Shown: positions 1 through 24,288 of the stretch, piece by piece
Numbering within the stretch: the first letter of the stretch is position 1
How the letters are laid out: each line of letters opens with the position of its first letter
UHGV virus genome: UHGV-0384602
Strand: one strand, 5' to 3'
Source: a virus
Length of the DNA: 44,870 bases
The notes under the pieces: model-generated
What the model was told of the DNA's origin: nothing
Seen by the model: only the letters and a program-made list of their open reading frames with translations
Databases searched by the model: none
Translations under genes and position numbers: made by a program

Positions 1-557
1 CCACCGGCCCCACCACCACCAACAATTTCAACAATAATAAATTTTGTGCCTTTTGTCGGAGTGTATGTACCTGAGCTTTTAAACACCTGACACTGTATAA
101 GCCTCCCGGAGCCATCTCCCAAACCAAGGTATGCGAGAATGTCATCAATAGTATTTTTGCCGATAATATCACGGCCTACCTTAGTGAGGTCGGTCTGCGC
201 AGCCTTATCTGTGCCAGTGAAATACGGTAGCTTATTTGCACCTGTCGCCAGTCCGGCCAGAGCCGTCAACGTGGCATCAAGCGCCTGATAATCCTTACCG
301 AATGCAGAAGACATTTTGGTAATGAATCCATTCAGGTCGCCATCATCCAATACATCCAGTCCGCTTTTGTTTGCTGTGTACTGTGCAAGTGCTGCAGCAA
401 TAAAGCTGGCCTGCCGAATAACCTTATTGACTTGCGCACTGGAGGCTTTCCCTGCTGTAAATCCGGATAAAAGCGCGGGCAACGCTTCCCATTCCTCCTG
501 CGATATAACATTGGCATTTCGATCCGTTGCAAACGCTTTAAAGTCATTTTTCGCCAT
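1..557 (-). CDS. tail fibre protein, N-terminal part (partial; gene runs off window start)
   Basis: ATG at 557..555 overlaps the stop of the upstream gene (ATGA). Frame is open for 185 codons to position 1: MAKNDFKAFATDRNANV...LTALAGLATGANKLPYFTGTDKAAQTDLTKVGRDIIGKN...EIVGGGGAG. The LTALAGL..NKLPYF..VGRDI block resembles the conserved region of lambda Stf-type side tail fibres (from memory). Confidence 0.55.
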   Translation of the reverse strand, partial: MAKNDFKAFATDRNANVISQEEWEALPALLSGFTAGKASSAQVNKVIRQASFIAAALAQYTANKSGLDVLDDGDLNGFITKMSSAFGKDYQALDATLTALAGLATGANKLPYFTGTDKAAQTDLTKVGRDIIGKNTIDDILAYLGLGDGSGRLIQCQVFKSSGTYTPTKGTKFIIVEIVGGGGAG

Positions 558-1237
558 CAGAGTAATACTCCCCATGCTCCTACATCAAAACCACTGATGA
601 ATTCGTTATCCATATCAAAACCAAAAAATTTTGAGCCTTCCGATGGGGTTTCCACCGAAGGTGTTTCAATGCCACCCGCCCATACCCCGGCAGCTTTTAC
701 TGTGAGATACCCCTGTTTAATTGCCGCAATTAACTCACGCGATACATCTGAAATATCAGTATCAGGAAAGACCCAGACCGATATCGTCATGTCCTGGTTA
801 TCGACTATCTGCATTCGCAGTCCGGATCCTACTGTCGCCGCGTCAAGAATTGCTGGAAGCGAATCATTCCGTCCGTCCCAGTTATTAATCGCAATCTTCG
901 CTTTAAGGATGACACGATAAGTTTCATCGCTGAGGTACATGTATCCGGAATCAGGATCGTATGGCCCCTGCCATACACCCTGATCATATCCAAGCCCGTC
1001 GGTATCCCAGCTGAAATAGACACCTGAGATAGGCTGGCTGACAACACGGCTACGTCCGATCCACAATCCAAGAATGTCAAGTTGCACACCAACCGCAGAG
1101 TCAATATCAAATGCAGTAATCAGCCCTCTGGTGGCAGCCGCAACATCAATAAGCGGCCGGGTCATCAGATCAACATGTGCAAGAAATTTAGGTTTGGTGG
1201 CGTGGTAGTTCGTGATCAGTTCGGTGTATTTGCTCAT
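557..1237 (-). CDS. baseplate/tail protein (226 aa)
   Basis: 226-aa ORF immediately upstream of the fibre gene, translationally coupled to its neighbours within the baseplate cluster. Function assigned by position only. Confidence 0.4.
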   Translation of the reverse strand: MSKYTELITNYHATKPKFLAHVDLMTRPLIDVAAATRGLITAFDIDSAVGVQLDILGLWIGRSRVVSQPISGVYFSWDTDGLGYDQGVWQGPYDPDSGYMYLSDETYRVILKAKIAINNWDGRNDSLPAILDAATVGSGLRMQIVDNQDMTISVWVFPDTDISDVSRELIAAIKQGYLTVKAAGVWAGGIETPSVETPSEGSKFFGFDMDNEFISGFDVGAWGVLL

Positions 1238-2433
1238 GACTCCACCGTTATAACGATATTTTCCGGTGTACAGGACGCAGATTCGTTGTATCTGATATCA
1301 ATGTTTGATGACGACAAAGCCCCCGGGGATTTCCCAATCGTCAGTTCCTGAATATCGTAATAGCGTGCATTCCCGCCACTCACCACGCCAAGATTCGCCG
1401 GTGAGTAAATGCGACTTAAAAGGACCGAATCACCAATCATCAGACTATTGATATAGTCGGAAATAGCCTGCTGGATCTGCTGCCCTATCTGTGAGGTATA
1501 ACCCGTAAAAACTTTTAATTTAATCCGGGCATAAACAGGTACATCACTGGAACGCGAGAATTTGATTACATGGGGATTGCCGTATTTATCCGGAACCGTA
1601 ACGGATGTTGTACCGTGAGTGGCTGTCCCCTGGCCTTTATTCCCTCTAATAGCCTGAGCAATATCCGTCACATCACCGCCATCCACAATTACAGCAACAG
1701 AGTGTGGCGGTAACCCGTTACCGTCCTCCGAACCAGTATCGTTTTCATAGAGTTTGTGGCGGGTTACACCGGTAACATTAGAAACAGCACCATCCAGTGC
1801 TTCAAATGGGGTTATTGATGGCAACGCAACACTTTGCGACTGGCGGATACGTAACTCCGCATCAGTTTCTGCTGGAGTGCCTACAGTAGCTGCAGCAGGA
1901 TTGGTTACCGAAACCCAGCCACGGGTTGGCGTATTAATTTCAGTGATAGTTCCAGCCAGCGCCGCCACTGCACCACTGACGGAACATTTTGCGGTCACCA
2001 TCACTGTACCATCCACGCCGACCACCACTGAAGCAGGCAAACGCCATATCACATTATTACCATCTTTCACGCTGCCATTAATGATGGTTGTTCCGGCAGT
2101 TCCTGTAAGAAGCAAATCAACCGTAGAATTCGTCGCGCCTTTACGTGAAATACCATTTATTTTCACGTTACTGGTCAGCGCAGCCCCATAGCCGGTTGCC
2201 GGTGAAAAACAGTTGTAGACAGTTATCGCCATATTATTGGCATCATGAATCGCCAGCGCCATCAGAGCCACCATCTGGCCGTCTTTGCTGTCCGGTTCGA
2301 GGTAGGCATCACTGCCATAAATCTGCTGAAAATAGCTAATCAGGGTGCTGAGTATCGTCTGATAATCAGGCGCACTGATCCCCTCCGCGGTTACCTTTGC
2401 AGATAAACCGAGAGAATCAAGGTTCAGAGCCAT
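1234..2433 (-). CDS. baseplate J-like protein
   Basis: 399-aa ORF, overlapping start/stop with neighbours. Size and position (after the gp25-like gene, before the fibre) are typical of baseplate J/gp47-like proteins of Mu/P2-type myoviruses. Confidence 0.5.
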   Translation of the reverse strand: MALNLDSLGLSAKVTAEGISAPDYQTILSTLISYFQQIYGSDAYLEPDSKDGQMVALMALAIHDANNMAITVYNCFSPATGYGAALTSNVKINGISRKGATNSTVDLLLTGTAGTTIINGSVKDGNNVIWRLPASVVVGVDGTVMVTAKCSVSGAVAALAGTITEINTPTRGWVSVTNPAAATVGTPAETDAELRIRQSQSVALPSITPFEALDGAVSNVTGVTRHKLYENDTGSEDGNGLPPHSVAVIVDGGDVTDIAQAIRGNKGQGTATHGTTSVTVPDKYGNPHVIKFSRSSDVPVYARIKLKVFTGYTSQIGQQIQQAISDYINSLMIGDSVLLSRIYSPANLGVVSGGNARYYDIQELTIGKSPGALSSSNIDIRYNESASCTPENIVITVES

Positions 2434-2786
2434 TACGCCTCCGATGTAACAGTCGTTATTCCATAAAGAGTGTCGATTTCAGCGGAAAACATGACACGTC
2501 GGGTCGTGGTATCCACCGTCGTATTGAAAGAGAGGATTGATTTAACGCCCTGCGTTTCGAGGATGCGTTTTCTGATCGCCAGGTTGTAAGTTTCCGGTTT
2601 TTGCCTGCCCAGCACGGACTGGATCCACGGAGTCCCCTCGGTGGTGTCGAGAAACCATTGCCCATACCACAATTCGAATCGCGTTTTTACCGCCTGCGCC
2701 ACGGCCTCCGGTGAGTTAATCAGCCAGGTGTCATCACCGCTGCCAAAGGTGTAATCGCCATCGGCGTCTTCACGTCTGTATCGCAT
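2433..2786 (-). CDS. baseplate wedge protein (gp25/GPW-like)
   Basis: 117-aa ORF between the V-like and J-like genes with ATGA overlap. Size and synteny match GPW/gp25. Confidence 0.45.
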   Translation of the reverse strand: MRYRREDADGDYTFGSGDDTWLINSPEAVAQAVKTRFELWYGQWFLDTTEGTPWIQSVLGRQKPETYNLAIRKRILETQGVKSILSFNTTVDTTTRRVMFSAEIDTLYGITTVTSEA

Positions 2787-3538
2787 CAGTTTACTCCGTC
2801 GGTATTGCTTCCACCGCGCTGAACACCACCATGAGTGTGCGTATCATCGATTGGCTTGCCGTTAGCCTTCACGCTACCCAAAAACTCAACAGCACCAGTG
2901 ATTTTTGAAGCCACACCAGAAACAACAGACCCCACCATGCCACCCATCCAGGTTAACAGGCCATGAATGGTTACTTTCTCAGAAAAATCAGCCAGAGGAG
3001 CAACCACATCAAGACCACCCGGAGCGACAATTTTAATTTTCCTGGTGTCAGGATTAAGCTCAAAATAGGTGCTGCCGTCGTCACTACGCAACTGTGTGGC
3101 ACTGGTATTAATACCGCTAATCTTCCTCGCCTGCGACTGGGGACCGACAATACAAAACGCATCCGATAAATCATGCATTCTGTCATCGACCGGCTCCTGT
3201 ATCCCGCCACTCTGCCACCAGAAATCAATACAACGATCGGCAAAAACGACAAGACACTCATCCCCGGCTTTTACCGGAAAAGTCAACGTACAGCCTCCGC
3301 CGCGCGGGAATACCACTGGTACATCCACCAGCAATGGGTAATTTTGGGTAATGCGGTTGCCGTCATTATCCTTTTCAACCGAACGGATAGCAGGCTGCAC
3401 AACTGCCGTCACCGCATCAGGATCGAATGACTGAATAATGCCAGGCAAGGCGACACGGATCTGGTTCTTTGTTGTTTCCCGTTCAGATTTGAATGTTTCG
3501 GCAAGGTCGCCGCTGCGGGTCTGGTCAGATACTGCCAT
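2786..3538 (-). CDS. baseplate assembly/spike protein (gpV-like)
   Basis: 250-aa ORF with RBS GGAG upstream. Gly-rich C-terminus. Position matches the baseplate V/spike of Mu-like tails. Confidence 0.45.
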   Translation of the reverse strand: MAVSDQTRSGDLAETFKSERETTKNQIRVALPGIIQSFDPDAVTAVVQPAIRSVEKDNDGNRITQNYPLLVDVPVVFPRGGGCTLTFPVKAGDECLVVFADRCIDFWWQSGGIQEPVDDRMHDLSDAFCIVGPQSQARKISGINTSATQLRSDDGSTYFELNPDTRKIKIVAPGGLDVVAPLADFSEKVTIHGLLTWMGGMVGSVVSGVASKITGAVEFLGSVKANGKPIDDTHTHGGVQRGGSNTDGVN

Positions 3539-3553
3539 TTAGTAGGCTCCAGA

Positions 3554-3582
3554 AAGCAAAAAACCCGCCATCCGGCGGGTTT
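3554..3582 (-). terminator. rho-independent terminator downstream of the lipoprotein gene
   Basis: Minus-strand hairpin AACCCGCC-GGAT-GGCGGGTT followed by a T6 run, 20 nt after the stop of the 3604..4329 gene and about 16 nt before the RBS of the next baseplate gene. Confidence 0.5.
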
Positions 3583-3603
3583 TATGTGACTAATTTGATC
3601 TTT

Positions 3604-4329
3604 TCAGTTTATAAGCCCCATCTTACCGGCGCTTCGATAGTTAATTACATCGCCTGAAGAGCCGCAAGGCACAGCTACAGTCGACATTTTGACAAATCCT
3701 TTACCGCCCTGCTTTTGGCATAAAGTGGCATGCATTTTTGCTAAACGCGCAGCATGACCAAAATCAATTTTGGTTCCGTAAGTTGAATCTCGTAGAGCTG
3801 CTTTTTTTGCAATTCCAGTAATATTTTTGTCTTTAATTACAGATGCAAACAAACTCAAATCATTTCCAATTTGATTGAAGCAAGTACGATTAATATCAAC
3901 ATCGGCATACGCTGAAATGCGTTTGCAATCTGAGATCTGAGAAAGCACAGATGTGTTAACCAGTTGCAAATTTAATTTGTAGTCACCGACATAGGTATAA
4001 ACTTTGTTAGGGTCCGTGGTTCCCGGATAACGAGTTACGAATGGAATGCTGTTGTACGCATCTCGCAAAGATTCTGCACCCTTACTTTTAAGCTCGTTCC
4101 CAACACCAGCAACGATAACCTCTGGATGTGAAACTTCAAATTGAGACTTTTCTTCGCGCTGTATTTGAAGCCTGCTTTTCTGGCTCTCCTCAACTTGCTT
4201 ATCGTACGCTTGTTTTTCTTCATTTTTTTGGGATAGCCATTTTTCCTGCGCTTTAGCACCATTAGGATCCCAACTACATGAAGTTAAAAAAAGAGAAAAT
4301 ACGATTGTGGTTATCGCAAGCCTGCTCAC
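3604..4329 (-). CDS. predicted lipoprotein (241 aa), moron inside the baseplate operon
   Basis: GTG start 2 nt after the upstream stop. N-terminus MSRLAITTIVFSLFLTSC has signal-peptide character with lipobox LTSC and Ser at +2. Followed by a charged E/K/Q-rich segment and a C-terminal domain. Own terminator downstream. Locally AT-richer by eye. Confidence 0.55.
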   Translation of the reverse strand: MSRLAITTIVFSLFLTSCSWDPNGAKAQEKWLSQKNEEKQAYDKQVEESQKSRLQIQREEKSQFEVSHPEVIVAGVGNELKSKGAESLRDAYNSIPFVTRYPGTTDPNKVYTYVGDYKLNLQLVNTSVLSQISDCKRISAYADVDINRTCFNQIGNDLSLFASVIKDKNITGIAKKAALRDSTYGTKIDFGHAARLAKMHATLCQKQGGKGFVKMSTVAVPCGSSGDVINYRSAGKMGLIN

Positions 4330-4331
4330 TA

Positions 4332-5396
4332 TTATGCACCTCGATTCATCGCTGACTGGCTAGGAATATCACTAGCACCTCGAGCAAAGCACATCATATC
4401 CATGTACCACGCCTGGCCCCTTGTGTCGCCAGTGTACATAATCCCGCGCACAATATAAACGCCATCCGTTGCGATGCTGGCAGGCTGCGATGTGGTGCCG
4501 CTTAGCGTGATATTTCCATCCGTGTTCTGGTCGGTGATCTGACCACCAGCCATCGCAATATCGTTGTTCGACAACGCGGTACGATACACTGAAGCCTGAT
4601 CCAGCTGAATGAGTCCGTTAACCCGGATGTTCGGATTAATAAGCGCGCGGACGTTTACGCCGTTACCGATAGTCTGCTGCGGCATGCCAATAAGCCCGGT
4701 AGCGCTGTTGAGCACAATCGCTTCATGAACATATTCGTTATTCGCCACCATCTGGCGCTGACCATCCACGAATTGCCATGTTGCGCCACATTGCCCGGCT
4801 ACGTTATCCATTAGATGCCGCGTCATGCCAAAGAGTACCCGCCCCCGGGGGAATACAGTAGCAGGCATTTCAGGCGTCAGGCCTTCGGTCGCGCCTTTGG
4901 CTTCGAAGTCTTTCATCAGCGCACGGTTTACATCAGCGACCGTGTAACCGGCAGCCAGCGTCTGTGAGGTTATACTGGTGGCAAAAGCCAGATCAGTATC
5001 TGCTGCCTGAATCAGGACGTAGGAATCAACCGGACTGTCTTTTCCTGTAACCGAGTAGCGAATTTCACCGCTGAAAATCAGTCCGTAGTTGCGACCATCA
5101 CTCTGGCCCACGTCCGCCGCGTCAACTTCCCGCACTGTCCCGACGTCGCTTGCCGACACCTCCGGCGCGATACCGTCGTAACCCGCAATCAGACGCACTT
5201 TCGAAAACTCCTGCCCGGTAATTCGGTTCACAGTATCTGCCGAGAGGTTATAAATTTTGATAGTCCCTACCCGGGACGCGCTGCTGATGTTGAACCAGTC
5301 GATCGTAAAGGTGACTTTAAAATCACTTAGCTCAATTCCCTGACCGTTCCCGTCCACAAGCTGCAGCTCGAAATGTCTCATCCAGTTCTGTGACAT
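4332..5396 (-). CDS. baseplate hub/tail protein (354 aa)
   Basis: 354-aa ORF in the tail operon between the tape-measure-proximal genes and the baseplate genes. Assigned by size and synteny. Confidence 0.4.
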   Translation of the reverse strand: MSQNWMRHFELQLVDGNGQGIELSDFKVTFTIDWFNISSASRVGTIKIYNLSADTVNRITGQEFSKVRLIAGYDGIAPEVSASDVGTVREVDAADVGQSDGRNYGLIFSGEIRYSVTGKDSPVDSYVLIQAADTDLAFATSITSQTLAAGYTVADVNRALMKDFEAKGATEGLTPEMPATVFPRGRVLFGMTRHLMDNVAGQCGATWQFVDGQRQMVANNEYVHEAIVLNSATGLIGMPQQTIGNGVNVRALINPNIRVNGLIQLDQASVYRTALSNNDIAMAGGQITDQNTDGNITLSGTTSQPASIATDGVYIVRGIMYTGDTRGQAWYMDMMCFARGASDIPSQSAMNRGA

Positions 5397-5398
5397 GC

Positions 5399-5701
5399 TT
5401 ACTCCGTTGATACCAGTAAATGGCTGCGACCGCCCAGGTCAGTTTTTGTGGGGTAATCCTGTGTGTTGTCATCACAGACCACCACCAGCTTAAAACCAAG
5501 CCCCATACAGGCGTACTGCGCCAGCAGGTCAGCACCAGTGACGAGAGGAATACCGGAGATTACCGGCTCCCCTCTGTCGTTCTGCAGGTCCATAATCCAG
5601 TACAGATCGCGCCATATGATGCTAATCCGCCAGGTGACACCACCCAGGACGATGCTGAACTGCTGGTTGTCCGCTGTCAGCGGAATTTCCTGAATTGTCA
5701 T
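5399..5701 (-). CDS. tail protein (100 aa)
   Basis: ORF tightly packed in the tail operon (3-nt gap to the next gene). Confidence 0.35.
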   Translation of the reverse strand: MTIQEIPLTADNQQFSIVLGGVTWRISIIWRDLYWIMDLQNDRGEPVISGIPLVTGADLLAQYACMGLGFKLVVVCDDNTQDYPTKTDLGGRSHLLVSTE

Positions 5702-6288
5702 TAGCCGCCCCCCAGTAATGACGCCACGTTACCCGTGATGCTTTTCAGCAGTGAAGTATCTGGAGGTTTTGTGGTTTTGTTGCCGCTGTTCTGTACCGCC
5801 GACGTGCTGGCCCCTTCCTTCATGTTGGTTTTATCCGCGACGGTAATCTGCTGTGTCCGGGAGATAATGACCTCCCTCAGGGTGAGGACGGCGGACAGGA
5901 CGTTTTCGGTTGTCTTGTCCGTCGTCACTTCCAGCGCCCGGATCAACATGTTGCTGTACAGCCGTTTACCGGTTACCACATCGAAGGGGATACGGCTTTC
6001 CTGCAGATCCAGTAGCTCCTGATACGTCTGCTGAGGACTCAGGCCGAGCAGGCTGGTAGCCGTCAGGTTACTGGCAAAATCCAGCAATGCGCCGCCACCG
6101 GCGAAACCAACCTCCATCACCACTTCTGACGGTTTTTTATAGGCATGATCAGCGACAGCGGCCCCGACCTCTACCGGATGCTCTGTTATTTCAAGCATAT
6201 CTGTATGCTTCTCTGAAATAACAACACTGGGAACAATCATTCCTATTTTTCTGCTCTGCTGATGAAAAAGTGTAGAGAGAATATCCAC
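5701..6288 (-). CDS. tail protein (195 aa)
   Basis: ORF immediately after the tape measure gene with a 1-nt overlap. Position typical of a distal tail/baseplate initiator protein. Confidence 0.35.
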   Translation of the reverse strand: MDILSTLFHQQSRKIGMIVPSVVISEKHTDMLEITEHPVEVGAAVADHAYKKPSEVVMEVGFAGGGALLDFASNLTATSLLGLSPQQTYQELLDLQESRIPFDVVTGKRLYSNMLIRALEVTTDKTTENVLSAVLTLREVIISRTQQITVADKTNMKEGASTSAVQNSGNKTTKPPDTSLLKSITGNVASLLGGG

Positions 6289-8273
6289 TAACCCACCCTC
6301 ACCTGATTACTTCGCATGACCTGAGCATTTGCAGACTGTTGCCGACGTGCAACCTCATTACCGACAGCGTGCGGATCTCCGCCACCGTAAATGTGGTAGG
6401 TATTTTGCTGGTTAACCTCTGTCACTTTGCCACTAATTCCCGCCACGGCAGCCTTATTAATCAGCTCTCGAGAATAGATATTTCTTCCATTCTCATGCTG
6501 GATAATGCTGCTCATCAATGCTGACATGGTTTGCGGATCGCTCATATTCAGGGCAGCCCGGGGATCCACTCCCAGTCGTTGCGATACAGCCCTGATATAC
6601 GCGGTTGTGTTGTTATTATCAGACGCAGGTGCCCAGGTAGAGATAATTTTCTCCACACTGTTTATTCCCCGTCCGGCGTACAGCATTAACTGACGAGCAA
6701 GAGCCCGTAATCCATCAAAGGCAGTTTCAAATCTGGCAAATCGCCCGCCCGGGCGTTCAAGAGAAGCCCCTGCCTGACCAGCAAAATTAAGGTTTCCCGG
6801 ATTGTTATTCCGTTCTCCTCGTTTCGTAGCCTGTGCATATTGTTCCGGCTCAGCACCTGGAATATCTGACTGAATATTTGCGCCTTTTACGGTATGAGGA
6901 TTACGACCAAAATCGGTATCAATGCCAAGCCAGCGCAATGAATCTCCAATATTTTGTTTCGTGTAATCCCAGGATGACTTCGCACTGGCACCAATATTTT
7001 CGCGATCAGAGTACAAATACGCAGCATAAGCCATCCAGCCTTTTAACCACGGCGGGACCGGCAAACCTGATATTTTCCCGAAAGCCCCCAGAACCCTGGA
7101 TACCCAGACACCCGCGATGAATGTACCAAGGATTTCCAGTGCATTTTGCCAGCCGCCAACACCATCTTTTAGTTCCAGAAGGTGATCACGAAGCCAGGTG
7201 ATCGCATCCTTCGCTTTATCTATTGCCGGTTGCCATTTTTCCCAGTCGATAAGACTGTTACCGCCTTCTTTCCATGTTTTGTAGTCTTCCCACAAGAGAC
7301 CGAGAGCCACGATCAGACCGGTAATCAGCCCTATAGGTGACATCCAGAAAGTAGAGTTAAGTATCCGCATGGCGACAACCAGACCGCCGATAACCTCTAT
7401 CAGGGTTTTCGTTTCGGCATCCAGTTTTCCCCACCACTCGATGATATCTCCGACACCATCGACTATCCGAAATGCTACCCGCCCGACTATCTCACCCAGC
7501 CAGAGGATCCCCTTTATGACCTTTGTGATGGTGACTTCAATTTTGGGAAAATTTTCAATTATCTTTTTGCGCAGGTTATCAATCTGCCCCGCCAGTCCGT
7601 CCGCAAGATTCGATCCGATTTTGTCCCGCGCCATCCCGGCCATTTCACCGAGCGATTTCAGCGAGGTCATAAACCGGTTTGACGATAAGGCAGCCTGATC
7701 GGCATTAAATCCGATCGCTTTCACCATTTCTGAATACTGAGCGCTGAACTGCCCCACACCACGACGCATGGCCATCAGGGTATTTTCGTCAATGCCCAGC
7801 ATCTGCGCATACTGGTTAGCCCGGTAATACGGCATACCGCTGAGCTTCTGGCCTACACCTGTAAAAATAGCGGCCATGTCACGCATGTTGCCGCTGGCAT
7901 CCCGTGTCTGAACACCCAGGCGATTCAGAAATCCCTCCGCCCCGGGATTGTTACGAATAAACCGGGAGAGACTTTCCAGAGAAGATCGCGCAGCGTCCAC
8001 ACTGCCGCCAACCTGCGAAACCGCATAGCCAATAGACTGAATTCCCTGGACCGTCGCGCCGGTGCGCTGTGACGCCCAGTAAAGATTATCCAGGCCGGAG
8101 GCGATCTTAGCCGTGAAGGCCACCACGGACAGCGCAGCTCCTTCAACAGCCAGCCCCATTTTGATGACATTTGCAGTTGTACCGGCGAGGACAGAACCGA
8201 ACTTTTTCGCTCCTGCATCATCCACACTGAAGCCAAGCGAGACGAGGAAATCTTTAATAGTCTCGGCGTTCAT
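6288..8273 (-). CDS. tail tape measure protein
   Basis: 661-aa ORF directly downstream of the chaperone frameshift pair. Contains a long central hydrophobic segment. Size and position are diagnostic. Confidence 0.65.
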   Translation of the reverse strand: MNAETIKDFLVSLGFSVDDAGAKKFGSVLAGTTANVIKMGLAVEGAALSVVAFTAKIASGLDNLYWASQRTGATVQGIQSIGYAVSQVGGSVDAARSSLESLSRFIRNNPGAEGFLNRLGVQTRDASGNMRDMAAIFTGVGQKLSGMPYYRANQYAQMLGIDENTLMAMRRGVGQFSAQYSEMVKAIGFNADQAALSSNRFMTSLKSLGEMAGMARDKIGSNLADGLAGQIDNLRKKIIENFPKIEVTITKVIKGILWLGEIVGRVAFRIVDGVGDIIEWWGKLDAETKTLIEVIGGLVVAMRILNSTFWMSPIGLITGLIVALGLLWEDYKTWKEGGNSLIDWEKWQPAIDKAKDAITWLRDHLLELKDGVGGWQNALEILGTFIAGVWVSRVLGAFGKISGLPVPPWLKGWMAYAAYLYSDRENIGASAKSSWDYTKQNIGDSLRWLGIDTDFGRNPHTVKGANIQSDIPGAEPEQYAQATKRGERNNNPGNLNFAGQAGASLERPGGRFARFETAFDGLRALARQLMLYAGRGINSVEKIISTWAPASDNNNTTAYIRAVSQRLGVDPRAALNMSDPQTMSALMSSIIQHENGRNIYSRELINKAAVAGISGKVTEVNQQNTYHIYGGGDPHAVGNEVARRQQSANAQVMRSNQVRVG

Positions 8274-8508
8274 TATCCTCTCTCCATTTTTCTACCCGGA
8301 CATCGTTGTCCTCGCACATATCAAGGTAGTCATTAAGAAGCGCGATGCGACAGAGATCTACCGCACCACTGTTAAGATCTTTCTGGTCAATATGGAAGGC
8401 AAGCGCCGGACGAAGAATAAAATCTTCACCACCCGGCAGGCTATTGAAGGTTATTCCGCTGGCGGGATGGGCGTCTCTTTGGTAGGGAGTCCTTGCAAAA
8501 AATTTCCC
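8254..8508 (-). other. -1 frame extension of the tail chaperone (G-T-like frameshift product), slippery site at 8502-8508
   Basis: From GGGAAAT (minus strand, 8508..8502) the -1 frame stays open for about 80 codons to a TAA at 8254-8256, just inside the tape measure start. The 0 frame stops at 8451. Confidence 0.45.
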
Positions 8509-8903
8509 AGCGAATCGGCGACCACCCGCGCCACCAGCTGAAGCATGACCAGCAAATCAATATCATCAAACATCAGTTCGCCCTGGGTAAATACCGGCAC
8601 CCATCCGTCCATATGACGCCGCGATACCACCGCAAGACAGGGATGAATAATCGCATCGGTGTCATCTTCGGTCAGGGAAGACAGTTCCTCAGCGATACGC
8701 GGGAGCATGGTTTCAAACACCGGTTTTAACTGCTCGAATTTCACGGTGTCGATTTTGCCGTCAGCAGGCAAACGGGAGCGAATGCTCCCGAAATCTGACA
8801 TCATTCCTGCCAGCACCGGCAGAAGTTTGCGGGTCACTTTCAGCTGGTCAAAAACGCTGAGTTTTGCCGCGCGATATTTCACGCCTTTGATTTCGAATTC
8901 CAT
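8451..8903 (-). CDS. tail assembly chaperone (G-like)
   Basis: 150-aa ORF between the tube and tape measure genes. Slippery heptamer G_GGA_AAT lies 16 codons before its stop. Confidence 0.5.
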   Translation of the reverse strand: MEFEIKGVKYRAAKLSVFDQLKVTRKLLPVLAGMMSDFGSIRSRLPADGKIDTVKFEQLKPVFETMLPRIAEELSSLTEDDTDAIIHPCLAVVSRRHMDGWVPVFTQGELMFDDIDLLVMLQLVARVVADSLGNFLQGLPTKETPIPPAE

Positions 8904-8906
8904 GTA

Positions 8907-9347
8907 TTAAAACTCCCCGAGAACCTGGTCAATCTTGCCGCAGTCAAACACCCACGGCATCGTATTACCGGTTTTAGCGTTGGCATTATCCGGTTGTTTC
9001 TGGAACGCAACACTACGTGCCGTGATGATGTCGCCGCTGACCTTGTTGCGGATCACAATAACGTTATTCCCCCATGTGGCAGAAGACTGGCTCTGTGCGT
9101 TATACGCCAGCGACAATTTTTTATTTGTCGGTGATGTCTTCAGAAGGTTAACGGTAATCGTCCCGCTTTTATCTGCATGGAGGCTGTGCATCACTTCACC
9201 ATCAGCACCGATGGTCATGGTGTTTTTAGGACCGCCCATCGCAACCACAATCCCCTCTTCAGAACTTGCCGAACCGTACCCGAGGTCAATCGAACCGGTC
9301 GGCCCGGTCAGCGTCGCAGTGACATCCATAAAAGAATAGGTAGACAT
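8907..9347 (-). CDS. tail tube protein
   Basis: 146-aa ORF immediately downstream of the sheath gene and upstream of the chaperone pair. Canonical sheath-tube-chaperone-tape-measure order. Confidence 0.5.
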   Translation of the reverse strand: MSTYSFMDVTATLTGPTGSIDLGYGSASSEEGIVVAMGGPKNTMTIGADGEVMHSLHADKSGTITVNLLKTSPTNKKLSLAYNAQSQSSATWGNNVIVIRNKVSGDIITARSVAFQKQPDNANAKTGNTMPWVFDCGKIDQVLGEF

Positions 9348-9357
9348 TCACTTCCCC

Positions 9358-10503
9358 TTAGCGAACAACGTTAATCTGTACGTCAGCGTAATGAACCGCG
9401 CCTGCAAGTTTTATTGCAGCCTGAATCACCGGAGCCTTACGGGCTTCACGTTCTGATTGTGCCTGTTCATCCAGCGGCTGGGCGTATACGTAATAACCTT
9501 TGGGCAGTGTGTCACCTGATGACAACTGACCAAGGTCGCCCCCGTTCCATACGCCCGGAGCAATCAGTCCATTCTGAACGGCCTGATCCAGTGATTTTTC
9601 AACATTTGATAACAGTCGGGTAATACCAGCTTCAGTCTGGGGAACTTTCGTGGTGCTGGTATAAAGCAGGTTATAGAGGTTGGTCTGCACATAATTCTGT
9701 AACCAGTCCAGGCCGTGGCGTTCATCAAAGAAATCGCCGTTAGCCATCACTCCCTGCTGGAGGATAGCCGTATCATTCTGGTAGTACACGAATACATTGC
9801 AGTTTTTTGCATCAAGTGCCGATGCCTGGCTGACTGTCAGTGTTTCATACCCGACACCCGGCTCCTGCTTAAACTTGAGCGTAATCGCGGTATTACTGCC
9901 ATTGAAATTAACCGTGAATACCCGGCCAAATGCAGATAACGCAGCGTATTTATTACCCGATGAATACTGAATAAAACTGCGTGAATATCCGGCGGTTTTC
10001 AGTTTTGATGCCAAATCATCGCTGGATGCAGTCTGCAGGCATTTATCATCGCTTGTCGTAATCGCCAGAGTACGGCTTACAGAAGAGGATTCGATCGCCG
10101 CAGCCACTTTCAGCCAGTCTGCATCCGGAATATCTTCATCGTCTGCAATCCCCAGCCCATACCATGAAGTATAATCGAGCATGGCATTCACAGCCTGCTC
10201 CAGCGTCTCAGGCGTGGCCTGTTCGCTGTCACCCTTCGTTTTCACCCAACGACCAACAAAAACCTCCTGAGGTTTCGGTGATTGTGAGAAAAACACCTGC
10301 GCAGCCTTATATTCTGGTGATTCCACGCCAAAATCTTTTCCAATATCTTCCGCGGCAGAATAACGGCGAATGCGCTCACTTACCGGAATGATTGTGGACG
10401 GGCCGAGAATGAGTAATGCACCAAAATTTCGCCCTGATGCTGCACGCGGCGACATGATCACATCAACATTAACAACGTTTGATACAGGCAAGCCCTGTGC
10501 CAT
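9358..10503 (-). CDS. tail sheath protein
   Basis: 381-aa ORF preceding the tube gene. Size and synteny fit a sheath protein. Confidence 0.5.
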
Positions 10504-10506
10504 AGC

Positions 10507-12566: not shown

Positions 12567-12607
12567 CGGGTCATCCTTAATGGCCCCGCCAGGGGGCCAT
12601 GTGGCTG

Positions 12608-13549: not shown

Positions 13550-13560
13550 TCGTCTGTTCC

Positions 13561-20017: not shown

Positions 20018-20443
20018 TTACTGAGAACGCTGGAGTAATCCGCGCTGAGCGAGAACTAGAACAATGTCATAAGACCCTTGCCTGTCTTTATAGCAAGTTT
20101 TATCAACTAACTCAGCTTTGCTAATTCCGGGTAAATCAAGAATCAGATTCGCAACTTCAATTGCCCTTTGGTACAACTTACCGATCTTTTTCTCCCCATG
20201 ATGTGGTTTTACATTCTTCAGATAACCGCTATCCGCCAGAGCGAGAAACGTTGCCCTTGGGCATCCCTTCTTTCTTGCCGATTCGCTTTCTGTAACCTCA
20301 GCGACAGCAGCATCCCATGCATCACGCGGGGATATTGAATTATCAGCAACCAAATAATAAGCAATTAAAGCGGCGCGCGCGTATTGAGACATAATGCATC
20401 CATATACAAAAATCTTATGATAAGACTTTTCTAATATGAACAC
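20018..20443 (-). CDS. hypothetical protein (141 aa; alternative start Met18)
   Basis: ORF at the distal end of the lysis cassette, the position where lambdoid phages carry morons such as bor. No recognisable motif. Confidence 0.4.
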
Positions 20444-20874
20444 TGTGATCTCACATACTCTTGCAGGCCATTCAATTGGTTAGTTATGGTTTCGATGCGC
20501 TCTCTGAGAACGAAATAATCCCGTTGAGCGGTGTCAGTAAGTCTGGGGCTGGCGCCATCATCCACGCCGGAGGCGGCGGTGGTTTTATGCATGTCCGGAC
20601 AGACTGCTTTGACGCGCAGCCACTTACGACCAGCAGAAACATCAGCACGAATACTTTCGATAGTCGCGTTAGCATCAGCAAGCTCCTTTGTGTATCTGGC
20701 GTCGAGTTCTGCTACATCACGTTGACGCTTCTGCATGTCAGCGATGATGTACGTGGCTTTATCGCGCTGTTCTTTATAGGTAATGGCGTTATCACGGTAA
20801 TGATTAACAGCCCATGACAGACAGACGATGATGCAGATAACCAGAGCGGAGATAATCGCGGTTAACCTGCTCAT
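20431..20874 (-). CDS. Rz: i-spanin Rz
   Basis: Begins [21 protein letters not shown] (N-terminal transmembrane helix) followed by a coiled-coil-like periplasmic domain. Directly follows the endolysin and contains Rz1 in another frame. Confidence 0.7.
20484..20681 (-). CDS. Rz1: o-spanin Rz1 (embedded in Rz, +1 frame)
   Basis: 65-aa ORF fully inside Rz. Signal peptide with lipobox VVSGC and a proline-rich tract [16 protein letters not shown] typical of Rz1. Confidence 0.65.
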
Positions 20875-21368
20875 TGCTGCCCCCACAAACAGACTTCACG
20901 CTCAATCTCACGGCGAGTCATCAGCCCTTTCCATTGCTTACCGCCAGCGTATGTCCAGCGACGTAGCTGGTCACATGCGCCTTTGATATCGCCCTGGTTT
21001 ATTTTGCGAAGAAGCGTCGATGTTCTGAAATTGCCAGCACCCACGTTGTAGACGAACGAGTAAAGAGCGCCGCGCGTTGTTTCCGGTATATCGACTTTGA
21101 TGTACGGGTTAATTTGTCTGGCGACCGTGGCAAGGTCTTTATTCAGGAGGGCTTTGCATTCTGCTTCGGTATACGTTTTACCGGGAATGATGTCTTTTCC
21201 TGTATGCCCGTGACATACAGTCCATACGCCAACGATATCTTTGTATGGTATGTAGCTGACACCTTCCAGACCATCGTTACCACCTGGACCAGTGATTAAC
21301 ACTGATGCTATAGCAATAGCCCCGCCACCAATAGCAGCTGCAACAGCTTTTCGTAATGATGGAGGCAT
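20871..21368 (-). CDS. R: SAR endolysin (phage 21 R-type lysozyme)
   Basis: 165-aa protein. N-terminal Gly/Ala-rich signal-anchor-release segment ([18 protein letters not shown]) and lysozyme core; closely matches phage 21 R as remembered. Confidence 0.85.
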
Positions 21369-21564
21369 TATTCACCTCTCGCAGCCTTTCTTCTGTCTTC
21401 TCTGATTTTGAAGTACAGATTTGTCAGATAAGTCAAAAAGCCCAGAACTAGACTTCCCAGCACACCAATTGCAGCCCACTGCGTATTACCGTGAAGGAGA
21501 TCGGTGAGTAACATCGATGGAGATCGGTTCGTGTCACTTTCACAGAACCGTTTTTAAATTACCT

Positions 21565-22314
21565 TCACTGATCTCCTTCGGTCAACGGAGATTGTATTTT
21601 CCGCATTGATTCTCCTTTAAGTTCGATCTTGATACTGCCATGAACCAGTCGATCTAGGATGGCATCCGCATGTGTGGAGTCTCCGATCATTTTGTACCAG
21701 TTTTCCACCGGCAACTGGCTCACTACGATGATTGAGCCTCGTTGGTACATCAGATCCACTATTTCCAGCAGGTCGCTACGCTGTTCTGATGAGAGAGGTT
21801 CCAGCCCCCAGTCATCCAGAAGCAGCAGATCGCTATTATTCAGCCTGGTCAAAAGTTTGCTGTATCTTCCATCAGCATGCCCCTGATAGCACTGTTCCAT
21901 CAGCGCTTTAAGGCGATAATAGTAGACCTTGTATCCCTGTCGGCAGGCATTATGACCAAGTGCACATGCCAGGAACGTTTTACCGCTGCCGGTGGCCCCG
22001 GTCAGTAAAATATTTTGTTTCAGGGTTAACCAGTTTCCCTGACTGAGTGAACGGATGAGGGCCCTGTCCAGCCCTCTATTGTTACGATAATCCAGCTTTG
22101 ATAACTCAGCATTAAGTCTGAACCGTGCATGTTTGATCAGACGCTCTGCCTTCCTGTTTTCACGGCAGGTTAGTTCTTCTGCTGTCAGTAATGACAGGCG
22201 TTCTTCGAAGCCCAGCTCCTGGTATGTGCCCGGTTGAGCAAGTTGCTTTTTAAGCGCATCACGGAAGCCGGTGAGTTTAAGTGCGGTCAGTTGTTCGTAA
22301 AGATGATTCATCAT
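21565..22314 (-). CDS. istB: IS21-family helper ATPase IstB
   Basis: 249 aa with Walker A GATGSGKT and Walker B LLLLDDWG; typical IstB. Confidence 0.85.
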   Translation of the reverse strand: MMNHLYEQLTALKLTGFRDALKKQLAQPGTYQELGFEERLSLLTAEELTCRENRKAERLIKHARFRLNAELSKLDYRNNRGLDRALIRSLSQGNWLTLKQNILLTGATGSGKTFLACALGHNACRQGYKVYYYRLKALMEQCYQGHADGRYSKLLTRLNNSDLLLLDDWGLEPLSSEQRSDLLEIVDLMYQRGSIIVVSQLPVENWYKMIGDSTHADAILDRLVHGSIKIELKGESMRKIQSPLTEGDQ

Positions 22315-22325: not shown

Positions 22326-23867
22326 TCAGTGGTAATACTCACTGCCGCGTACGTTTTCGTGTTCCATCGTGGATAACAGATCTGGTTTTGGATCCTGAAC
22401 AGGTTGTTTATCCAGACCTTTTTCCAGGATCGATTTAATACCTGACAGACGCCATACCTTTGTTTTCAGAGCTCTTGCACATGCTGCATTAAGTCTGGCT
22501 TTACTGTATTTTTTATGAAGGTTCAGGAGTCCAAGGCAGAAGCGATAGCTTTGTTCCGGATGTGGACGAGAGTTCAGTATATGAAGCACATAACTATGAG
22601 TTTCACTGCCTATGTGCCCCGCCCATTCCAGAAGACGCTCTGGCGTCCAGGTGGCATGCTGTCGATGAGCTTCAGGCATGTGCTCGTTGCGGGTACTGTA
22701 GCCATAAGTACGCTTGCGCGGGTGCACAGCAACCTCCTGCCCCTGATTGAAGAGTCTTACCAGTTCTCCGGAGATCCATGCTTCCAGTTGCTGGCCTAAC
22801 AGCGAACATGGAACCGAGTAGTAATGTTTGTCGATTTCCACGTGGTAATCGGCATGAACTCTGACTTTCTTCACCAGGGTGTAACTGTAACTGGCTTCAG
22901 GAAGAGGCTTCAGTGCGGGTTTATCAAGCTGGATGAAGAGTTCTGCACGTGAATAACCCAACTTCTGCATTATTTTGTTATTCAGTCTTTCCAGCAACTC
23001 CCGAATGCGCTGATTAAGCGATGCAAGGCTGTAGAAGATCTCATGCCTGATTCGGGCCATGATCCAGCGTTCAACAACCTGAACGCCAACTTCAGCTTTG
23101 GCTTTATCTTTCGGTTTACGTGGCCGCGCAGGCAAAACTGCGACATTATAATGCTCAAGCATCTGCTGGTAGGTAGGGTTAACGTCAGGATCATACTTAC
23201 ATGCCCTGGATGTGGCGCTTTTCAGATTGTCCGGAACAACAAGTTCAGGAACGCCACCCAACCACTGGAAGCAGCGAACATGACTCATCACCCAGTCTTC
23301 AAGCTGCTGAGACCAGGTGGCCTCTGCCCATGTGTAACTTGATGCCCCGAGAACAGCTACGATGACCTGAGCAGTTCTTATTTCTCCGGTCTCAGGGTCG
23401 GTAACGCCAACGGTAGGTCCACAGTAATCAACGAAAAGTTTTTCGCCAGCTTTATGTACCTGACGCATTGATGGTGAAGTGGTTTTGAGCCATTCACGGT
23501 ACATCCGGCAGTAATGGTTATAGCTGTAAAAACCGCCTGGATTACGCTCACAGTATTCTTCCCAGAGTAGCTGCAGCGTCACGCATTTATTACGCAGTTC
23601 CCGGTGTACTGTAGCCCAGTCAGGCAGAGAGTGCTTCTTCATCTTAACCTGGGTCTGAAGGAACGCATGTTTTAGTTTTGTATCATCCCATCCTGTAGGT
23701 AAGGGCCACTGCTTTATGCCAAGTTGAGCCGCCCGATTAGCATATCTGGATACAACGGAAGGGGAGATTGCAAGACTACGACCAATTTGTCGATGGCTGA
23801 GTCCAACACCGTATTTAAGCCTAAGAATTTCTTTAAGTTTTCTCATAGAAATTGGAACTGTTGGCAT
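22326..23867 (-). CDS. istA: IS21-family transposase IstA
   Basis: 513 aa with N-terminal HTH and a DDE integrase-like core. Immediately upstream of istB, as in IS21-family elements. Confidence 0.85.
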   Translation of the reverse strand: MPTVPISMRKLKEILRLKYGVGLSHRQIGRSLAISPSVVSRYANRAAQLGIKQWPLPTGWDDTKLKHAFLQTQVKMKKHSLPDWATVHRELRNKCVTLQLLWEEYCERNPGGFYSYNHYCRMYREWLKTTSPSMRQVHKAGEKLFVDYCGPTVGVTDPETGEIRTAQVIVAVLGASSYTWAEATWSQQLEDWVMSHVRCFQWLGGVPELVVPDNLKSATSRACKYDPDVNPTYQQMLEHYNVAVLPARPRKPKDKAKAEVGVQVVERWIMARIRHEIFYSLASLNQRIRELLERLNNKIMQKLGYSRAELFIQLDKPALKPLPEASYSYTLVKKVRVHADYHVEIDKHYYSVPCSLLGQQLEAWISGELVRLFNQGQEVAVHPRKRTYGYSTRNEHMPEAHRQHATWTPERLLEWAGHIGSETHSYVLHILNSRPHPEQSYRFCLGLLNLHKKYSKARLNAACARALKTKVWRLSGIKSILEKGLDKQPVQDPKPDLLSTMEHENVRGSEYYH

Positions 23868-24288
23868 AGGTATCCTTTACCGGAATGGCAAAAGATACAG
23901 ATCAACACACCTGTGAAGTTCCAATAACATTGATGGAGATCACTGAATAACAAAATGAGTCAAAAGTGATCTCCATCGATGTTATTCAGCGATCTGTTCA
24001 AATGTTATTACCCGATCTCGATGGAAGTTATTGAGTGATCTCCTTTCATGAAAATACGCAGCCCACTGTGACGGACTGACCTGATCCAACCACTGTAAAA
24101 ACCAGTATCCCGCACTACCAGCGGATGTTCCGTAGGCAATGCCAGTAGAGATTTTGTCCATTGATTTCATAGCAACGCCTCCGCAAGTAACGGATTGCGT
24201 AGTTCTTATATTGGGAAGGGGAAAAAAGAAGGCCGCGGCATAACTATCACTGATGAGTTCAGGATAGCCAGTGGCTACGGCTCAGTTA

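What the first reader, a model, noticed from the sequence alone, without database searches (positions are those of the whole stretch)
3548..4335. Lipoprotein moron with its own terminator inside the baseplate operon
A 241-aa ORF with a lipoprotein signal peptide (lipobox LTSC, Ser at +2 suggesting outer-membrane sorting) sits between baseplate genes and is followed by a hairpin plus T-run just before the next baseplate gene's RBS. A secreted host-envelope lipoprotein is not a virion component, so this looks like an inserted cargo gene. By analogy with Cor, Llp and Bor it may mediate receptor-blocking superinfection exclusion or another lysogenic-conversion function. I recognise no enzymatic motif.
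Basis: partly seen in the sequence, partly recalled or inferred. Interest (0 to 1): 0.65.

Follow-up and report, generated by a model that had tools for sequence, protein, structure and literature searches.

The report
Swappable phage lipoprotein gene beside baseplate hub
A prophage of E. coli carries, between two tail-baseplate genes, a real but uncharacterised gene for an outer-membrane lipoprotein. It is one of three interchangeable "exported protein" genes found at this spot in all relatives, and it probably alters the cell envelope (most likely to exclude other phages) rather than forming part of the virus particle.

Summary
A 241-aa ORF (3604-4329, minus strand) has a canonical lipobox (LTSC, Cys18). 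It lies between the baseplate hub and spike genes and is followed by a strong hairpin plus T-run 20 nt before the spike start.

The gene is real: dN/dS is 0.11-0.13 and it has about 36 relatives. Nearly every full-length relative has a lipobox Cys; one has a Sec-type signal instead. The gene is AT-rich and has no Pfam, PDB or viral fold match.

"Inserted cargo" is half right:
- An E. coli phage with a 97% identical structural module carries other genes in this slot, so the lipoprotein is not a virion part.
- It has no recognisable promoter of its own. Its start lies 2 nt after the hub stop.
- The terminator is a fixed feature of the slot in all relatives, not part of this cassette.
- In 75 of 75 related viral contigs, the gene right after the hub encodes an exported protein: a small beta protein (63), this lipoprotein (7), or a soluble distant relative of it (5).

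The lipoprotein does not co-vary with the tail-fibre tip, which argues against a Cor/Llp-style receptor mask.

The most likely function, inferred and not shown, is periplasm-side exclusion of incoming phages. Interest is moderate.

The parts
3604..4329 (-). 241-aa lipoprotein gene (GTG start, TGA stop); an uncharacterised family
   Evidence: ORF list. About 36 relatives among 1.84 billion representative proteins. dN/dS is 0.11-0.13. No hit in Pfam, NCBIfam or PADLOC. The AF2 model has pLDDT 86, with no PDB or BFVD fold match.
4276..4329 (-). Signal peptide with lipobox LTSC. Cys18 is the lipidated first residue of the mature protein, and Ser at +2 gives no Asp retention signal.
   Evidence: Fits the PS51257 pattern. 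Cys18 is invariant in the 15-sequence alignment. No full-length relative has Asp at +2.
4337..4342 (-). Ribosome-binding site GAGGTG of the lipoprotein gene, inside the last codons of the hub gene. The hub stop at 4334..4332 is 2 nt before the GTG.
   Evidence: Read from the sequence. Relatives show the same tight junction, from a 7-nt gap to a 4-nt overlap.
3552..3583 (-). Intrinsic-terminator-like hairpin (10-bp stem, GGAT loop) plus T-run; the conserved 3' boundary of the variable slot
   Evidence: Scan; dG -16 kcal/mol. Present in 19 of 19 diverse and 73 of 75 close relatives regardless of cargo, with compensatory stem changes.
3584..4389 (-). The exchanged cassette. It runs from the last ~55 nt of the hub gene to just before the terminator.
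   Evidence: blastn against phage 606R2 shows homology over 380-3585 and 4390-19210 only. Boundary alignments A3 and A4.
4332..5396 (-). Baseplate hub gene (354 aa), the upstream neighbour. Its last ~18 codons differ between slot variants.
   Evidence: Weak E217_GP41 match and NCBIfam orf58_phage_fam; alignment A3.
2786..3538 (-). Central spike gene (250 aa, gpV-like), the downstream neighbour. Its RBS GGAG is at 3550..3547.
   Evidence: PF18352 at E=8e-45 plus the Apex motif.
6288..8273 (-). Tape-measure protein (661 aa). Its C-terminal region (about residues 485-620) resembles an endolysin. It is a candidate periplasmic target, by inference only.
   Evidence: phmmer against PDB sequences: 7q47 'Endolysin' at E=1e-13 and 9vvp Gp29 at E=1e-20.

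Best explanation
**What is shown**
- The gene encodes a Sec/Lsp-exported lipoprotein. The mature protein starts at lipidated Cys18. With Ser at +2 it should be sorted to the inner leaflet of the outer membrane.
- The predicted architecture is a roughly 45-residue charged helix (22-67) followed by a 170-residue alpha/beta domain with four conserved cysteines.
- It is an accessory allele, not a virion part. It replaces other exported-protein genes at 'position 1' of a variable slot between the hub and spike genes, in a widespread family of lambdoid-regulated myovirus prophages of Enterobacterales.

**What is inferred**
- The gene abuts the hub gene, has no recognisable promoter, and the phage carries a Q antiterminator. 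It should therefore be made with the late tail proteins. Any lysogen expression would need a cryptic promoter inside the hub gene, and such transcripts would stop at the conserved terminator.

**Proposed mechanism (inferred, not shown)**
- From the outer membrane, the stalk holds the globular domain in the periplasm.
- There it interferes with infection by incoming phages at a step after fibre binding. The most plausible way is by binding a periplasm-exposed part of a penetrating tail tip: the spike, the hub, or the endolysin-like C-terminus of the tape measure. This would resemble T4 Spackle or the Ltp lipoprotein of phage TP-J34.
- The result would be protection of the infected or lysogenic cell and its progeny.
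For: - **Export signal.** It is conserved across the family. Four cysteines in the mature domain are conserved: C135, C150 and C204 are invariant and C222 nearly so, which fits an oxidising compartment.
- **Purifying selection.** dN/dS is 0.11-0.13, about three times faster than the hub.
- **Fixed location.** The gene lies in the same hub-to-spike slot in all 30+ loci at 36-100% identity, including the 370-aa versions in Serratia.
- **Not needed for the virion.** Phage 606R2 has a 97% identical structural module without it.
- **Position 1 always encodes an exported protein.** The census of 75 IMG/VR relatives gives 63 small Sec-signal beta proteins, 7 lipoproteins and 5 soluble distant relatives of the lipoprotein domain. 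This points to a shared envelope-directed role.
- **Allele swapping.** In locus L028 the flanks are 89-94% identical but the lipoprotein only 48%, as expected for a gene in an arms race.
- **Defence-like neighbours.** Cargo after position 1 includes a YafO toxin-antitoxin pair and weak PycTM and HEPN hits.
- **A possible target exists.** The tape measure carries an endolysin-like domain that must act in the periplasm.
- **Late read-through is plausible.** A Q antiterminator is present.
- **Precedents.** Lipoproteins encoded in the structural cluster of mEpimmI coliphages exclude superinfecting phages (PMC11893012). Ltp is the prototype of a family of lipoproteins involved in superinfection exclusion (PMC3952083); that the tape measure is its target comes from my own knowledge (Bebeacua et al. 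2013, Mol Microbiol), not from a paper read here.
Against: - There is no experimental or homology evidence for any function, and the fold has no known relative.
- No promoter was found, so expression in a lysogen is doubtful. Classical exclusion needs that expression. Late-only expression would limit exclusion to the end of infection.
- The lipoprotein allele does not co-vary with the tape measure, spike or hub of its own phage, so there is no sign of a cognate pair.
- The constant position could simply reflect recombination through conserved flanks rather than a functional link.
Confidence: 0.4

Rival explanations
1. It is a receptor-masking exclusion lipoprotein of the Llp/Cor type. It would bind the outer-membrane receptor used by this phage, blocking adsorption and protecting progeny from debris.
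For: - It is predicted to be an outer-membrane lipoprotein.
- mEpimmI phages have receptor-matched exclusion lipoproteins inside their structural gene cluster (PMC11893012).
- T5 Llp, known from the literature, works during lytic growth. Late co-expression is therefore compatible.
Against: - There is no linkage to the receptor-binding tail-fibre tip. Only 3 of 12 lipoprotein-positive genomes have the window's tip, and 11 of the 14 genomes with that tip lack the lipoprotein.
- There is no sequence or fold similarity to Bor, Cor or Llp.
- At 224 residues with a long stalk, the mature protein is far larger than Llp or Cor (sizes from memory).
Confidence: 0.15
2. It is a lytic-cycle helper made with the tail proteins. 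It would be an envelope factor that tunes lysis or egress, or prevents released particles from re-attaching or firing on the dying cell's envelope. It would not be a lysogen function.
For: - The gene is tightly joined to the hub gene in all relatives, with no promoter found.
- An exported protein at position 1 is universal in the family, even in minimal slots of 409-411 nt. That suggests a function of the phage itself rather than optional host cargo.
Against: - The phage already has a holin, endolysin and Rz/Rz1 spanins.
- Three unrelated or barely related proteins fill the position, which is unusual for a core mechanical role.
- The conserved terminator directly after the slot suggests terminator-sensitive (non-Q) transcription through it.
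Confidence: 0.2
3. It is a lysogenic-conversion factor that benefits the bacterium in its animal host, for example serum resistance or adhesion as with Bor or TraT. It would be unrelated to phage-phage conflict.
For: - It is an AT-rich accessory gene in prophages of human, bovine and pet E. coli isolates.
- The same prophage carries two O-antigen-type acyltransferase genes as cargo.
- Profile search gave a sub-threshold match of residues 3-56 to the complement-inhibiting lipoprotein ChiB (E=0.022). This is probably only signal-peptide similarity.
Against: - With Ser at +2 and no known surface-exposure signal, the domain should face the periplasm.
- The family is confined to one slot of one phage tail module across Escherichia, Citrobacter, Serratia, Rouxiella and Limnobaculum, including environmental genera. 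That does not fit a host-niche factor.
- No promoter was found.
Confidence: 0.1
4. It is a structural or assembly component of the baseplate, and its hydrophobic N-terminus is not used for export.
For: - The gene lies inside the baseplate gene block and is coupled to the hub gene.
- It stays in this position over long divergence.
Against: - A 97% identical structural module exists without it in named E. coli myophage records of the vB_EcoM-606R2/689R2 group, deposited as complete phage genomes.
- Only 3% of E. coli prophages with this hub have it.
- The lipobox Cys is conserved across the family.
- The four conserved cysteines fit the periplasm, not the cytoplasm.
Confidence: 0.04

Closest known systems
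Lpp exclusion lipoproteins of mEpimmI coliphages (PMC11893012)
   Same: Both are small phage-encoded lipoproteins with a canonical lipobox. Both are encoded inside the structural gene cluster of temperate E. coli phages, and both occur as several alternative sequence types among close relatives.
   Different: The mEpimmI proteins belong to siphoviruses with a J protein and are matched to the receptor (OmpA or LamB). Their exclusion activity has been shown by experiment. Here the phage is a myovirus, the protein is much larger, there is no linkage to the fibre tip, there is no sequence relationship, and the function is untested.
T5 Llp and the Cor proteins of phi80/N15/HK022 (FhuA-blocking lipoproteins; from the literature)
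   Same: All are outer-membrane lipoproteins encoded next to tail or receptor-binding genes. They protect the cell, and for Llp also the progeny, from phages of the same receptor class.
   Different: There is no Pfam, sequence or fold similarity. Llp and Cor are short and receptor-specific. This protein is 224 residues when mature, has a long helical stalk, and does not co-vary with the fibre.
Ltp of Streptococcus thermophilus phage TP-J34 (PMC3952083)
   Same: Both are prophage lipoproteins built as lipid anchor, spacer and globular domain. Ltp is a superinfection-exclusion lipoprotein; from my own knowledge (Bebeacua et al. 2013) it blocks DNA entry by targeting the incoming tape measure. 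This is the mechanism proposed here.
   Different: Ltp is from a Gram-positive host and is surface-exposed, with two HTH-like repeat domains. It is expressed from the lysogeny module. No fold similarity was detected.
T4 Spackle (periplasmic inhibitor of the gp5 tail lysozyme; from the literature)
   Same: Both are exported phage proteins acting in the periplasm. The tail tip of this phage also carries a lysin-like domain, at the tape-measure C-terminus. The small beta protein that usually fills this position is similar in size to Spackle.
   Different: There is no homology. Spackle is an early gene and is not next to gene 5. Binding to the tape-measure lysin here is pure inference.
Lambda-type morons (bor, lom; HK97 gp15)
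   Same: Both are AT-rich extra genes within a late operon that is read by Q-antiterminated polymerase. They are absent from close relatives and are followed by a terminator.
   Different: No own promoter was found here. The terminator is a fixed feature of the slot and not part of the cassette. The gene replaces another exported-protein gene rather than being added to the genome.

Membership tests
Bacterial lipoprotein (PROSITE PS51257 type) | A positively charged n-region, a hydrophobic h-region, and a lipobox [LVI][ASTVI][GAS]C with Cys at position 15-35 | tested here: met
   The N-terminus is MSRLAITTIVFSLFLTSC with Cys18 and Arg3, and it matches the pattern. Cys18 is invariant in the 15-sequence alignment, and 31 of 48 family entries pass the strict pattern.
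Bacterial lipoprotein (PROSITE PS51257 type) | Actual lipidation, Lsp cleavage and outer-membrane sorting | not testable with these tools
   Only the +2 rule can be read from the sequence. Position +2 is Ser, and no family member has Asp there. Globomycin or palmitate labelling with membrane fractionation is needed.
Moron (Juhala/Hendrix sense) | Present in one phage and absent at the same place in close relatives | tested here: met
   Phage 606R2 is 97% identical on both sides but has different genes in the slot. Only 12 of 352 E. coli prophages carry the lipoprotein.
Moron (Juhala/Hendrix sense) | Base composition different from the flanking genes | tested here: met
   GC is 0.41 for the gene against 0.51-0.53 for the flanks. 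The same gap appears in all 16 loci examined.
Moron (Juhala/Hendrix sense) | Own promoter upstream of the gene | tested here: not met
   The GTG lies 2 nt after the hub stop. No sigma-70-like site was found on the minus strand in 2500-5500. The best PWM hit, 101 nt upstream, scores 9.0 against a background 75th-90th percentile of 8.6-9.9, and it lies in conserved hub codons. A weak or non-sigma-70 promoter cannot be excluded.
Moron (Juhala/Hendrix sense) | Own terminator downstream | tested here: inconclusive
   A strong hairpin plus T-run follows the gene. The same element precedes the spike gene in relatives with any cargo or none, so it is not specific to this cassette.
Moron (Juhala/Hendrix sense) | Transcribed in the lysogen while the late genes are silent | not testable with these tools
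   No transcriptome data for a carrier strain were available.
Lambda Bor / Cor / T5 Llp families | Sequence or fold homology to the family | tested here: not met
   [not shown]
Spanins (Rz1-type o-spanin or T1 gp11-type u-spanin) | Location in the lysis cassette; a short proline-rich lipoprotein paired with Rz, or a lipoprotein with a C-terminal transmembrane helix | tested here: not met
   The gene lies in the baseplate block and has no C-terminal hydrophobic segment. The phage has its own Rz (20431..20886) with an embedded Rz1 (20484..20681, lipobox VSGC, PPPPP).
Known anti-phage defence systems (PADLOC) | Match to a defence-system protein model | tested here: not met
   No family at E<=0.01.
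Spackle/Ltp-like tail-tip-directed exclusion proteins (functional class) | Binds and blocks a periplasm-exposed tail-tip component of the incoming phage | not testable with these tools
   The only evidence is that a possible target exists: the tape-measure C-terminus resembles an endolysin. No complex prediction or binding assay was possible.

The most novel reading that the evidence does not exclude
The hub-spike junction of this widespread enterobacterial myo-prophage family, found in 352 of 5426 complete E. coli genomes and in more than 580 IMG/VR contigs, may hold a previously undescribed obligatory 'position-1' gene. That gene always encodes an exported envelope protein and comes in at least three interchangeable forms: a small beta periplasmic protein, this stalked outer-membrane lipoprotein, and a soluble version of its domain. 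Under this reading the proteins form a diversifying family of periplasmic anti-tail-tip factors. They would neutralise the lysin-bearing tape measure or the spike of incoming related phages, as a modular Spackle-like exclusion system hard-wired next to the hub gene. A defence-cargo bay and a fixed terminator follow directly downstream.
Probability: 0.2. Interest if true: 0.7.

Novelty: new member of a known kind. Interest (0 to 1): 0.4.

Why it matters
- If the lipoprotein and its two alternative occupants block phage entry from the periplasmic side, they would add a new fold and a new genomic address to the short list of post-adsorption exclusion proteins in Gram-negative bacteria.
- The address itself is useful. 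The slot runs from the hub gene through an exported protein and 0-3 cargo genes to a terminator and the spike gene, in prophages carried by about 6% of complete E. coli genomes. It could be mined for defence and toxin-antitoxin cargo, much as the P2/P4 hotspots are.
- The practical stake is modest but real. Such genes shape which therapeutic or temperate phages can infect clinical E. coli, Klebsiella and Salmonella lysogens.
- If the function turns out to be ordinary lysogenic conversion, this is simply one more uncharacterised moron.

Tried and rejected
1. **Homology to the usual position-1 protein.** Profile comparison of the lipoprotein with the small secreted protein (phrog_3443) gave probability 1%. 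A short LN.QL...CK resemblance seen by eye is chance.
2. **Enzyme or known-domain assignment.**
   - Pfam, NCBIfam and PADLOC gave nothing, and PHROGs gave only a weak N-terminal hit of unknown function.
   - The conserved His and Glu residues (H68, E70, H192, H200) are not kept in distant relatives, so a catalytic site is unlikely.
   - RefSeq's 'HMG-box domain-containing protein' label has no Pfam support here. It probably reflects the Lys/Glu-rich helix.
3. **Fold assignment.**
   - The AFDB libraries were not available.
4. **Spanin role.** Rejected, because Rz and Rz1 are present.
5. **Linkage to the tail-fibre tip.** Rejected.
6. **Own promoter.** Not found.
7. **Structured RNA in the intergenic region.** Rfam gave only sub-threshold terminator-like matches.
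8. **Context outside this slot.** None was found, even for the 370-aa versions. The first genome scan, with a nine-sequence alignment, failed because no stretch was conserved enough.
9. **Literature.** Searches on SEN34, ST64B/sseK3 and prophage hotspots found no description of this slot.
Full report
**1. The observation**

- The ORF is at 3604..4329 on the minus strand. It is 241 aa with a GTG start, and no alternative in-frame start is plausible.
- A GAGGTG ribosome-binding site lies 7 nt upstream, inside the last codons of the preceding gene. That gene's TAA stop ends 2 nt before the GTG.
- The N-terminus MSRLAITTIVFSLFLTSC|SWD fits the PROSITE lipoprotein pattern, with Cys at 18, Arg at 3 and Ser at +2.
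- A hairpin with a 10-bp stem begins 20 nt after the stop: AAAACCCGCC-GGAT-GGCGGGTTTT at 3583..3560. It is followed by TTGCTTTC, then GGAG (3550..3547) and the ATG of the next gene at 3538.
- The upstream gene (4332..5396) is a baseplate hub. It gives a weak E217_GP41 match and hits NCBIfam orf58_phage_fam.
- The downstream gene (2786..3538) is a gpV-type spike, with PF18352 at E=8e-45 and an Apex motif.
- A Dit-like protein, a Pam3-type plug, a sheath initiator, Baseplate_J and DUF2612 complete the block.
- GC drops to 0.37-0.43 across the ORF from 0.50-0.55 on either side.

**2. Is it a real gene and a real lipoprotein?**

- A search of 5.8 billion proteins found 15 clusters at 41-99% identity. 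A profile search of 1.84 billion representatives found 36. The family is real but rare.
- Cys18 is invariant in the 15-sequence alignment. Four more cysteines in the mature part are conserved: C135, C150 and C204 are invariant and C222 nearly so.
- Nearly all full-length relatives carry a lipobox, including the 360-378-aa versions that have an extra N-terminal domain. None has Asp at +2. One relative has a Sec-type signal instead.
- dN/dS against relatives at 78-86% identity is 0.11-0.13, compared with 0.03-0.07 for the hub in the same or similar loci.
- AlphaFold2 gives pLDDT 86. The signal peptide is disordered, residues 22-67 form one long Lys/Glu/Gln-rich helix, and residues 68-241 form an alpha/beta domain.
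- Pfam, NCBIfam and PADLOC give nothing, and PHROGs gives one weak N-terminal hit of unknown function.
- No record among 50,697 phage genomes encodes it.

**3. What the surroundings show**

*The phage*
- It is a temperate myovirus with lambda-like control. It has a CI-type repressor, NinG, a Q antiterminator, an endolysin, Rz with embedded Rz1, and a lambda-type integrase.

*The slot in close relatives*
- The closest sequenced phages are Escherichia phages vB_EcoM-606R2, 689R2 and 611R5. Yersinia YP3 and Salmonella SEN34 (Brunovirus) are more distant. All match both flanks but not the ORF.
- Against 606R2 the window is collinear and 97.3-97.5% identical over 380-3585 and 4390-19210. That stretch covers the whole structural module, and the only break is 3586-4389.
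- The left boundary of the exchanged piece lies in the last ~55 nt of the hub gene. The right boundary is the terminator.
- Among 5426 complete E. coli genomes, 352 have this hub and spike but only 12 have the lipoprotein.
- The others carry a 110-116-aa protein with a Sec signal peptide (phrog_3443) directly after the hub. It is followed by variable cargo: DUF4282, DUF2335, a YafO toxin with a partner gene, and membrane proteins with weak PycTM or HEPN similarity.

*Census of 75 complete IMG/VR relatives*

| First gene after the hub | Loci |
|---|---|
| Small secreted beta protein | 63 |
| This lipoprotein | 7 |
| 153-175-aa Sec-signal protein | 5 |

- The third type resembles Hafnia phage yong1 gp67. 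It is a distant relative of the lipoprotein's C-terminal domain, linked through intermediates at E=1e-7 and 5e-5 and by a direct profile comparison at E=1e-3.
- The small protein is not related to the lipoprotein. It is far more common, with more than 410 clusters across Enterobacterales, and it is also present in Klebsiella phage Mulock.
- Slots of 409-411 nt hold the small protein alone.
- The architecture is therefore: hub, one exported protein, zero to three cargo genes, terminator, spike.

**4. The lipoprotein never leaves this slot**

- In every locus recovered, from 100% down to 36% identity, the gene sits directly after the hub and before the spike. These loci came from E. coli, Citrobacter, Limnobaculum, Serratia, Rouxiella and metagenomes. 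Some carry 0.6-1.4 kb of extra cargo behind it.
- The junction with the hub is always tight, from a 7-nt gap to a 4-nt overlap.
- The gene is 8-24 GC points below its flanks in all 16 loci examined.
- In L028 the flanks are 89-94% identical to the window but the lipoprotein only 48%. Alleles are therefore exchanged between close phages.

**5. The terminator**

- A GC-rich hairpin plus T-run lies 16-24 nt before the spike start in 19 of 19 diverse relatives.
- The stem sequences differ in a compensatory way: CCCGCC/GGCGGG, CCCACC/GGTGGG, CCTCGCC/GGCGAGG, CCCGTC/GACGGG.
- It is also present in 73 of 75 close relatives, whatever the cargo.
- It is a conserved element of the phage family and not something imported with this gene.
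- With a Q antiterminator present, late transcription should read through it. Its conservation suggests that some terminator-sensitive transcription crosses the slot, most obviously from cargo promoters in the intergenic gaps of other variants.

**6. Expression**

- No sigma-70-type promoter was found on the minus strand between 2500 and 5500.
- A position-weight scan found a recurrent TTTATA-17-TA(C/T)ACT about 101-128 nt upstream in nine of the eleven loci scanned. It scores within the background range and lies in strongly conserved hub codons (DGVYIVRGIMYTGD). It cannot be taken as evidence.
- The default expectation is co-transcription, and probably translational coupling, with the hub during late growth. 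Expression in the lysogen is unproven.

**7. Function**

The following readings are rejected or disfavoured:
- **Virion part.** The virion module is 97% identical without the gene.
- **Spanin.** Rz and Rz1 are present.
- **Receptor mask matched to the fibre.** Only 3 of the 12 lipoprotein-positive genomes share the window's fibre tip, and 11 of the 14 genomes with that tip lack the lipoprotein.
- **Enzyme.** The conserved His and Glu residues are lost in distant relatives.

What remains is an envelope-located binding protein: lipid anchor, a helix that would span roughly 7 nm if fully extended, and a disulfide-stabilised domain.

- The tape measure of this phage ends in a domain that matches a solved endolysin (7q47, E=1e-13) and Gp29 of 9vvp (E=1e-20). 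The tail tip must therefore work in the periplasm.
- Known precedents are T4 Spackle, Ltp of TP-J34 (PMC3952083) and the exclusion lipoproteins of mEpimmI phages (PMC11893012).
- On that basis I rate periplasm-side exclusion of incoming phages as the most likely role, at about 0.4.
- A lytic-cycle helper is next (0.2), then receptor masking (0.15), then host-directed conversion (0.1).
- None of these is shown.

**8. Comparison and verdict**

- It works most like the phage exclusion lipoproteins, but it is not a member of any described family. It also fails the promoter criterion of a classical moron.
- It is a new, fold-orphan member of the broad class of phage accessory envelope proteins.
- The more interesting point is that an exported protein at this address is universal in the phage family. 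That point goes beyond the original finding.
- Interest is moderate.

Noticed in passing
window 21515-23981 (IstB 21565..22314, IstA 22326..23867, minus strand): An IS21-family element (IstA with rve and Mu-transposase C domains, IstB ATPase) is inserted into the holin gene. The N-terminal holin fragment is at 23982..24170 and the C-terminal fragment at 21368..21514. The insertion lies between the Q antiterminator gene and the rest of the late operon. This copy of the prophage is probably defective for lysis and perhaps for late transcription.
   Followed up: partly
window 6288-8273 (tape measure), about residues 485-620: The C-terminal part of the tape measure matches a solved 'Endolysin' (7q47, E=1e-13) and Gp29 of 9vvp (E=1e-20). 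Pfam sees only a weak PhageMin_Tail hit. This is a virion-borne peptidoglycan hydrolase domain on the tape measure.
   Followed up: partly
[not shown]
   Followed up: partly
L011, L012, L013, L014, L015, L009 (between the position-1 gene and the spike): The bay behind the position-1 gene holds very diverse cargo: a YafO toxin with an upstream partner, DUF4282 and DUF2335 membrane proteins, proteins with weak PycTM, HEPN or EAD5 similarity, and a TPR-like protein in Yersinia phage YP3. It looks like an undescribed defence and toxin-antitoxin hotspot.
   Followed up: partly
window 39941-41116 (+), 41154-42491 (-), 42884-43909 (+): Two Acyl_transf_3 genes flank a 445-aa protein with no Pfam match. 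They lie between the integrase and the tail-fibre assembly gene. They are probably O-antigen or surface-polysaccharide acylation cargo, which would be lysogenic conversion or receptor modification.
   Followed up: no
window 1-556 and 44346-44870: The window appears circularly permuted. The tail-fibre gene runs off the start and continues at the end of the window. In E. coli PRO_A-1407-6W-A_ESBL the same genes are contiguous, next to ybhB. In that genome the fibre gene is annotated in two pieces, one of them marked as incomplete.
   Followed up: partly
window 24289-24444 (minus strand): tRNA-Thr(TGT) and tRNA-Asn(GTT) genes sit between the Q gene and the disrupted holin.
   Followed up: no
window 3604-4329, as annotated in RefSeq genomes (e.g. 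NZ_CM136170.1, WP_029399670.1): NCBI's pipeline names this protein 'HMG-box domain-containing protein' in some genomes and 'hypothetical protein' in others. It also names the sheath-initiator homologue 'thioredoxin domain-containing protein'. Both names look spurious.
   Followed up: partly
L045:4902-5312 (Hafnia phage yong1 gp67): The annotated gp67 starts at MAAPGK and lacks a signal peptide. E. coli homologues in the same slot (L056, L068) have a Sec signal peptide just upstream of the same motif, so the yong1 start is probably mis-called or the gene is truncated.
   Followed up: no
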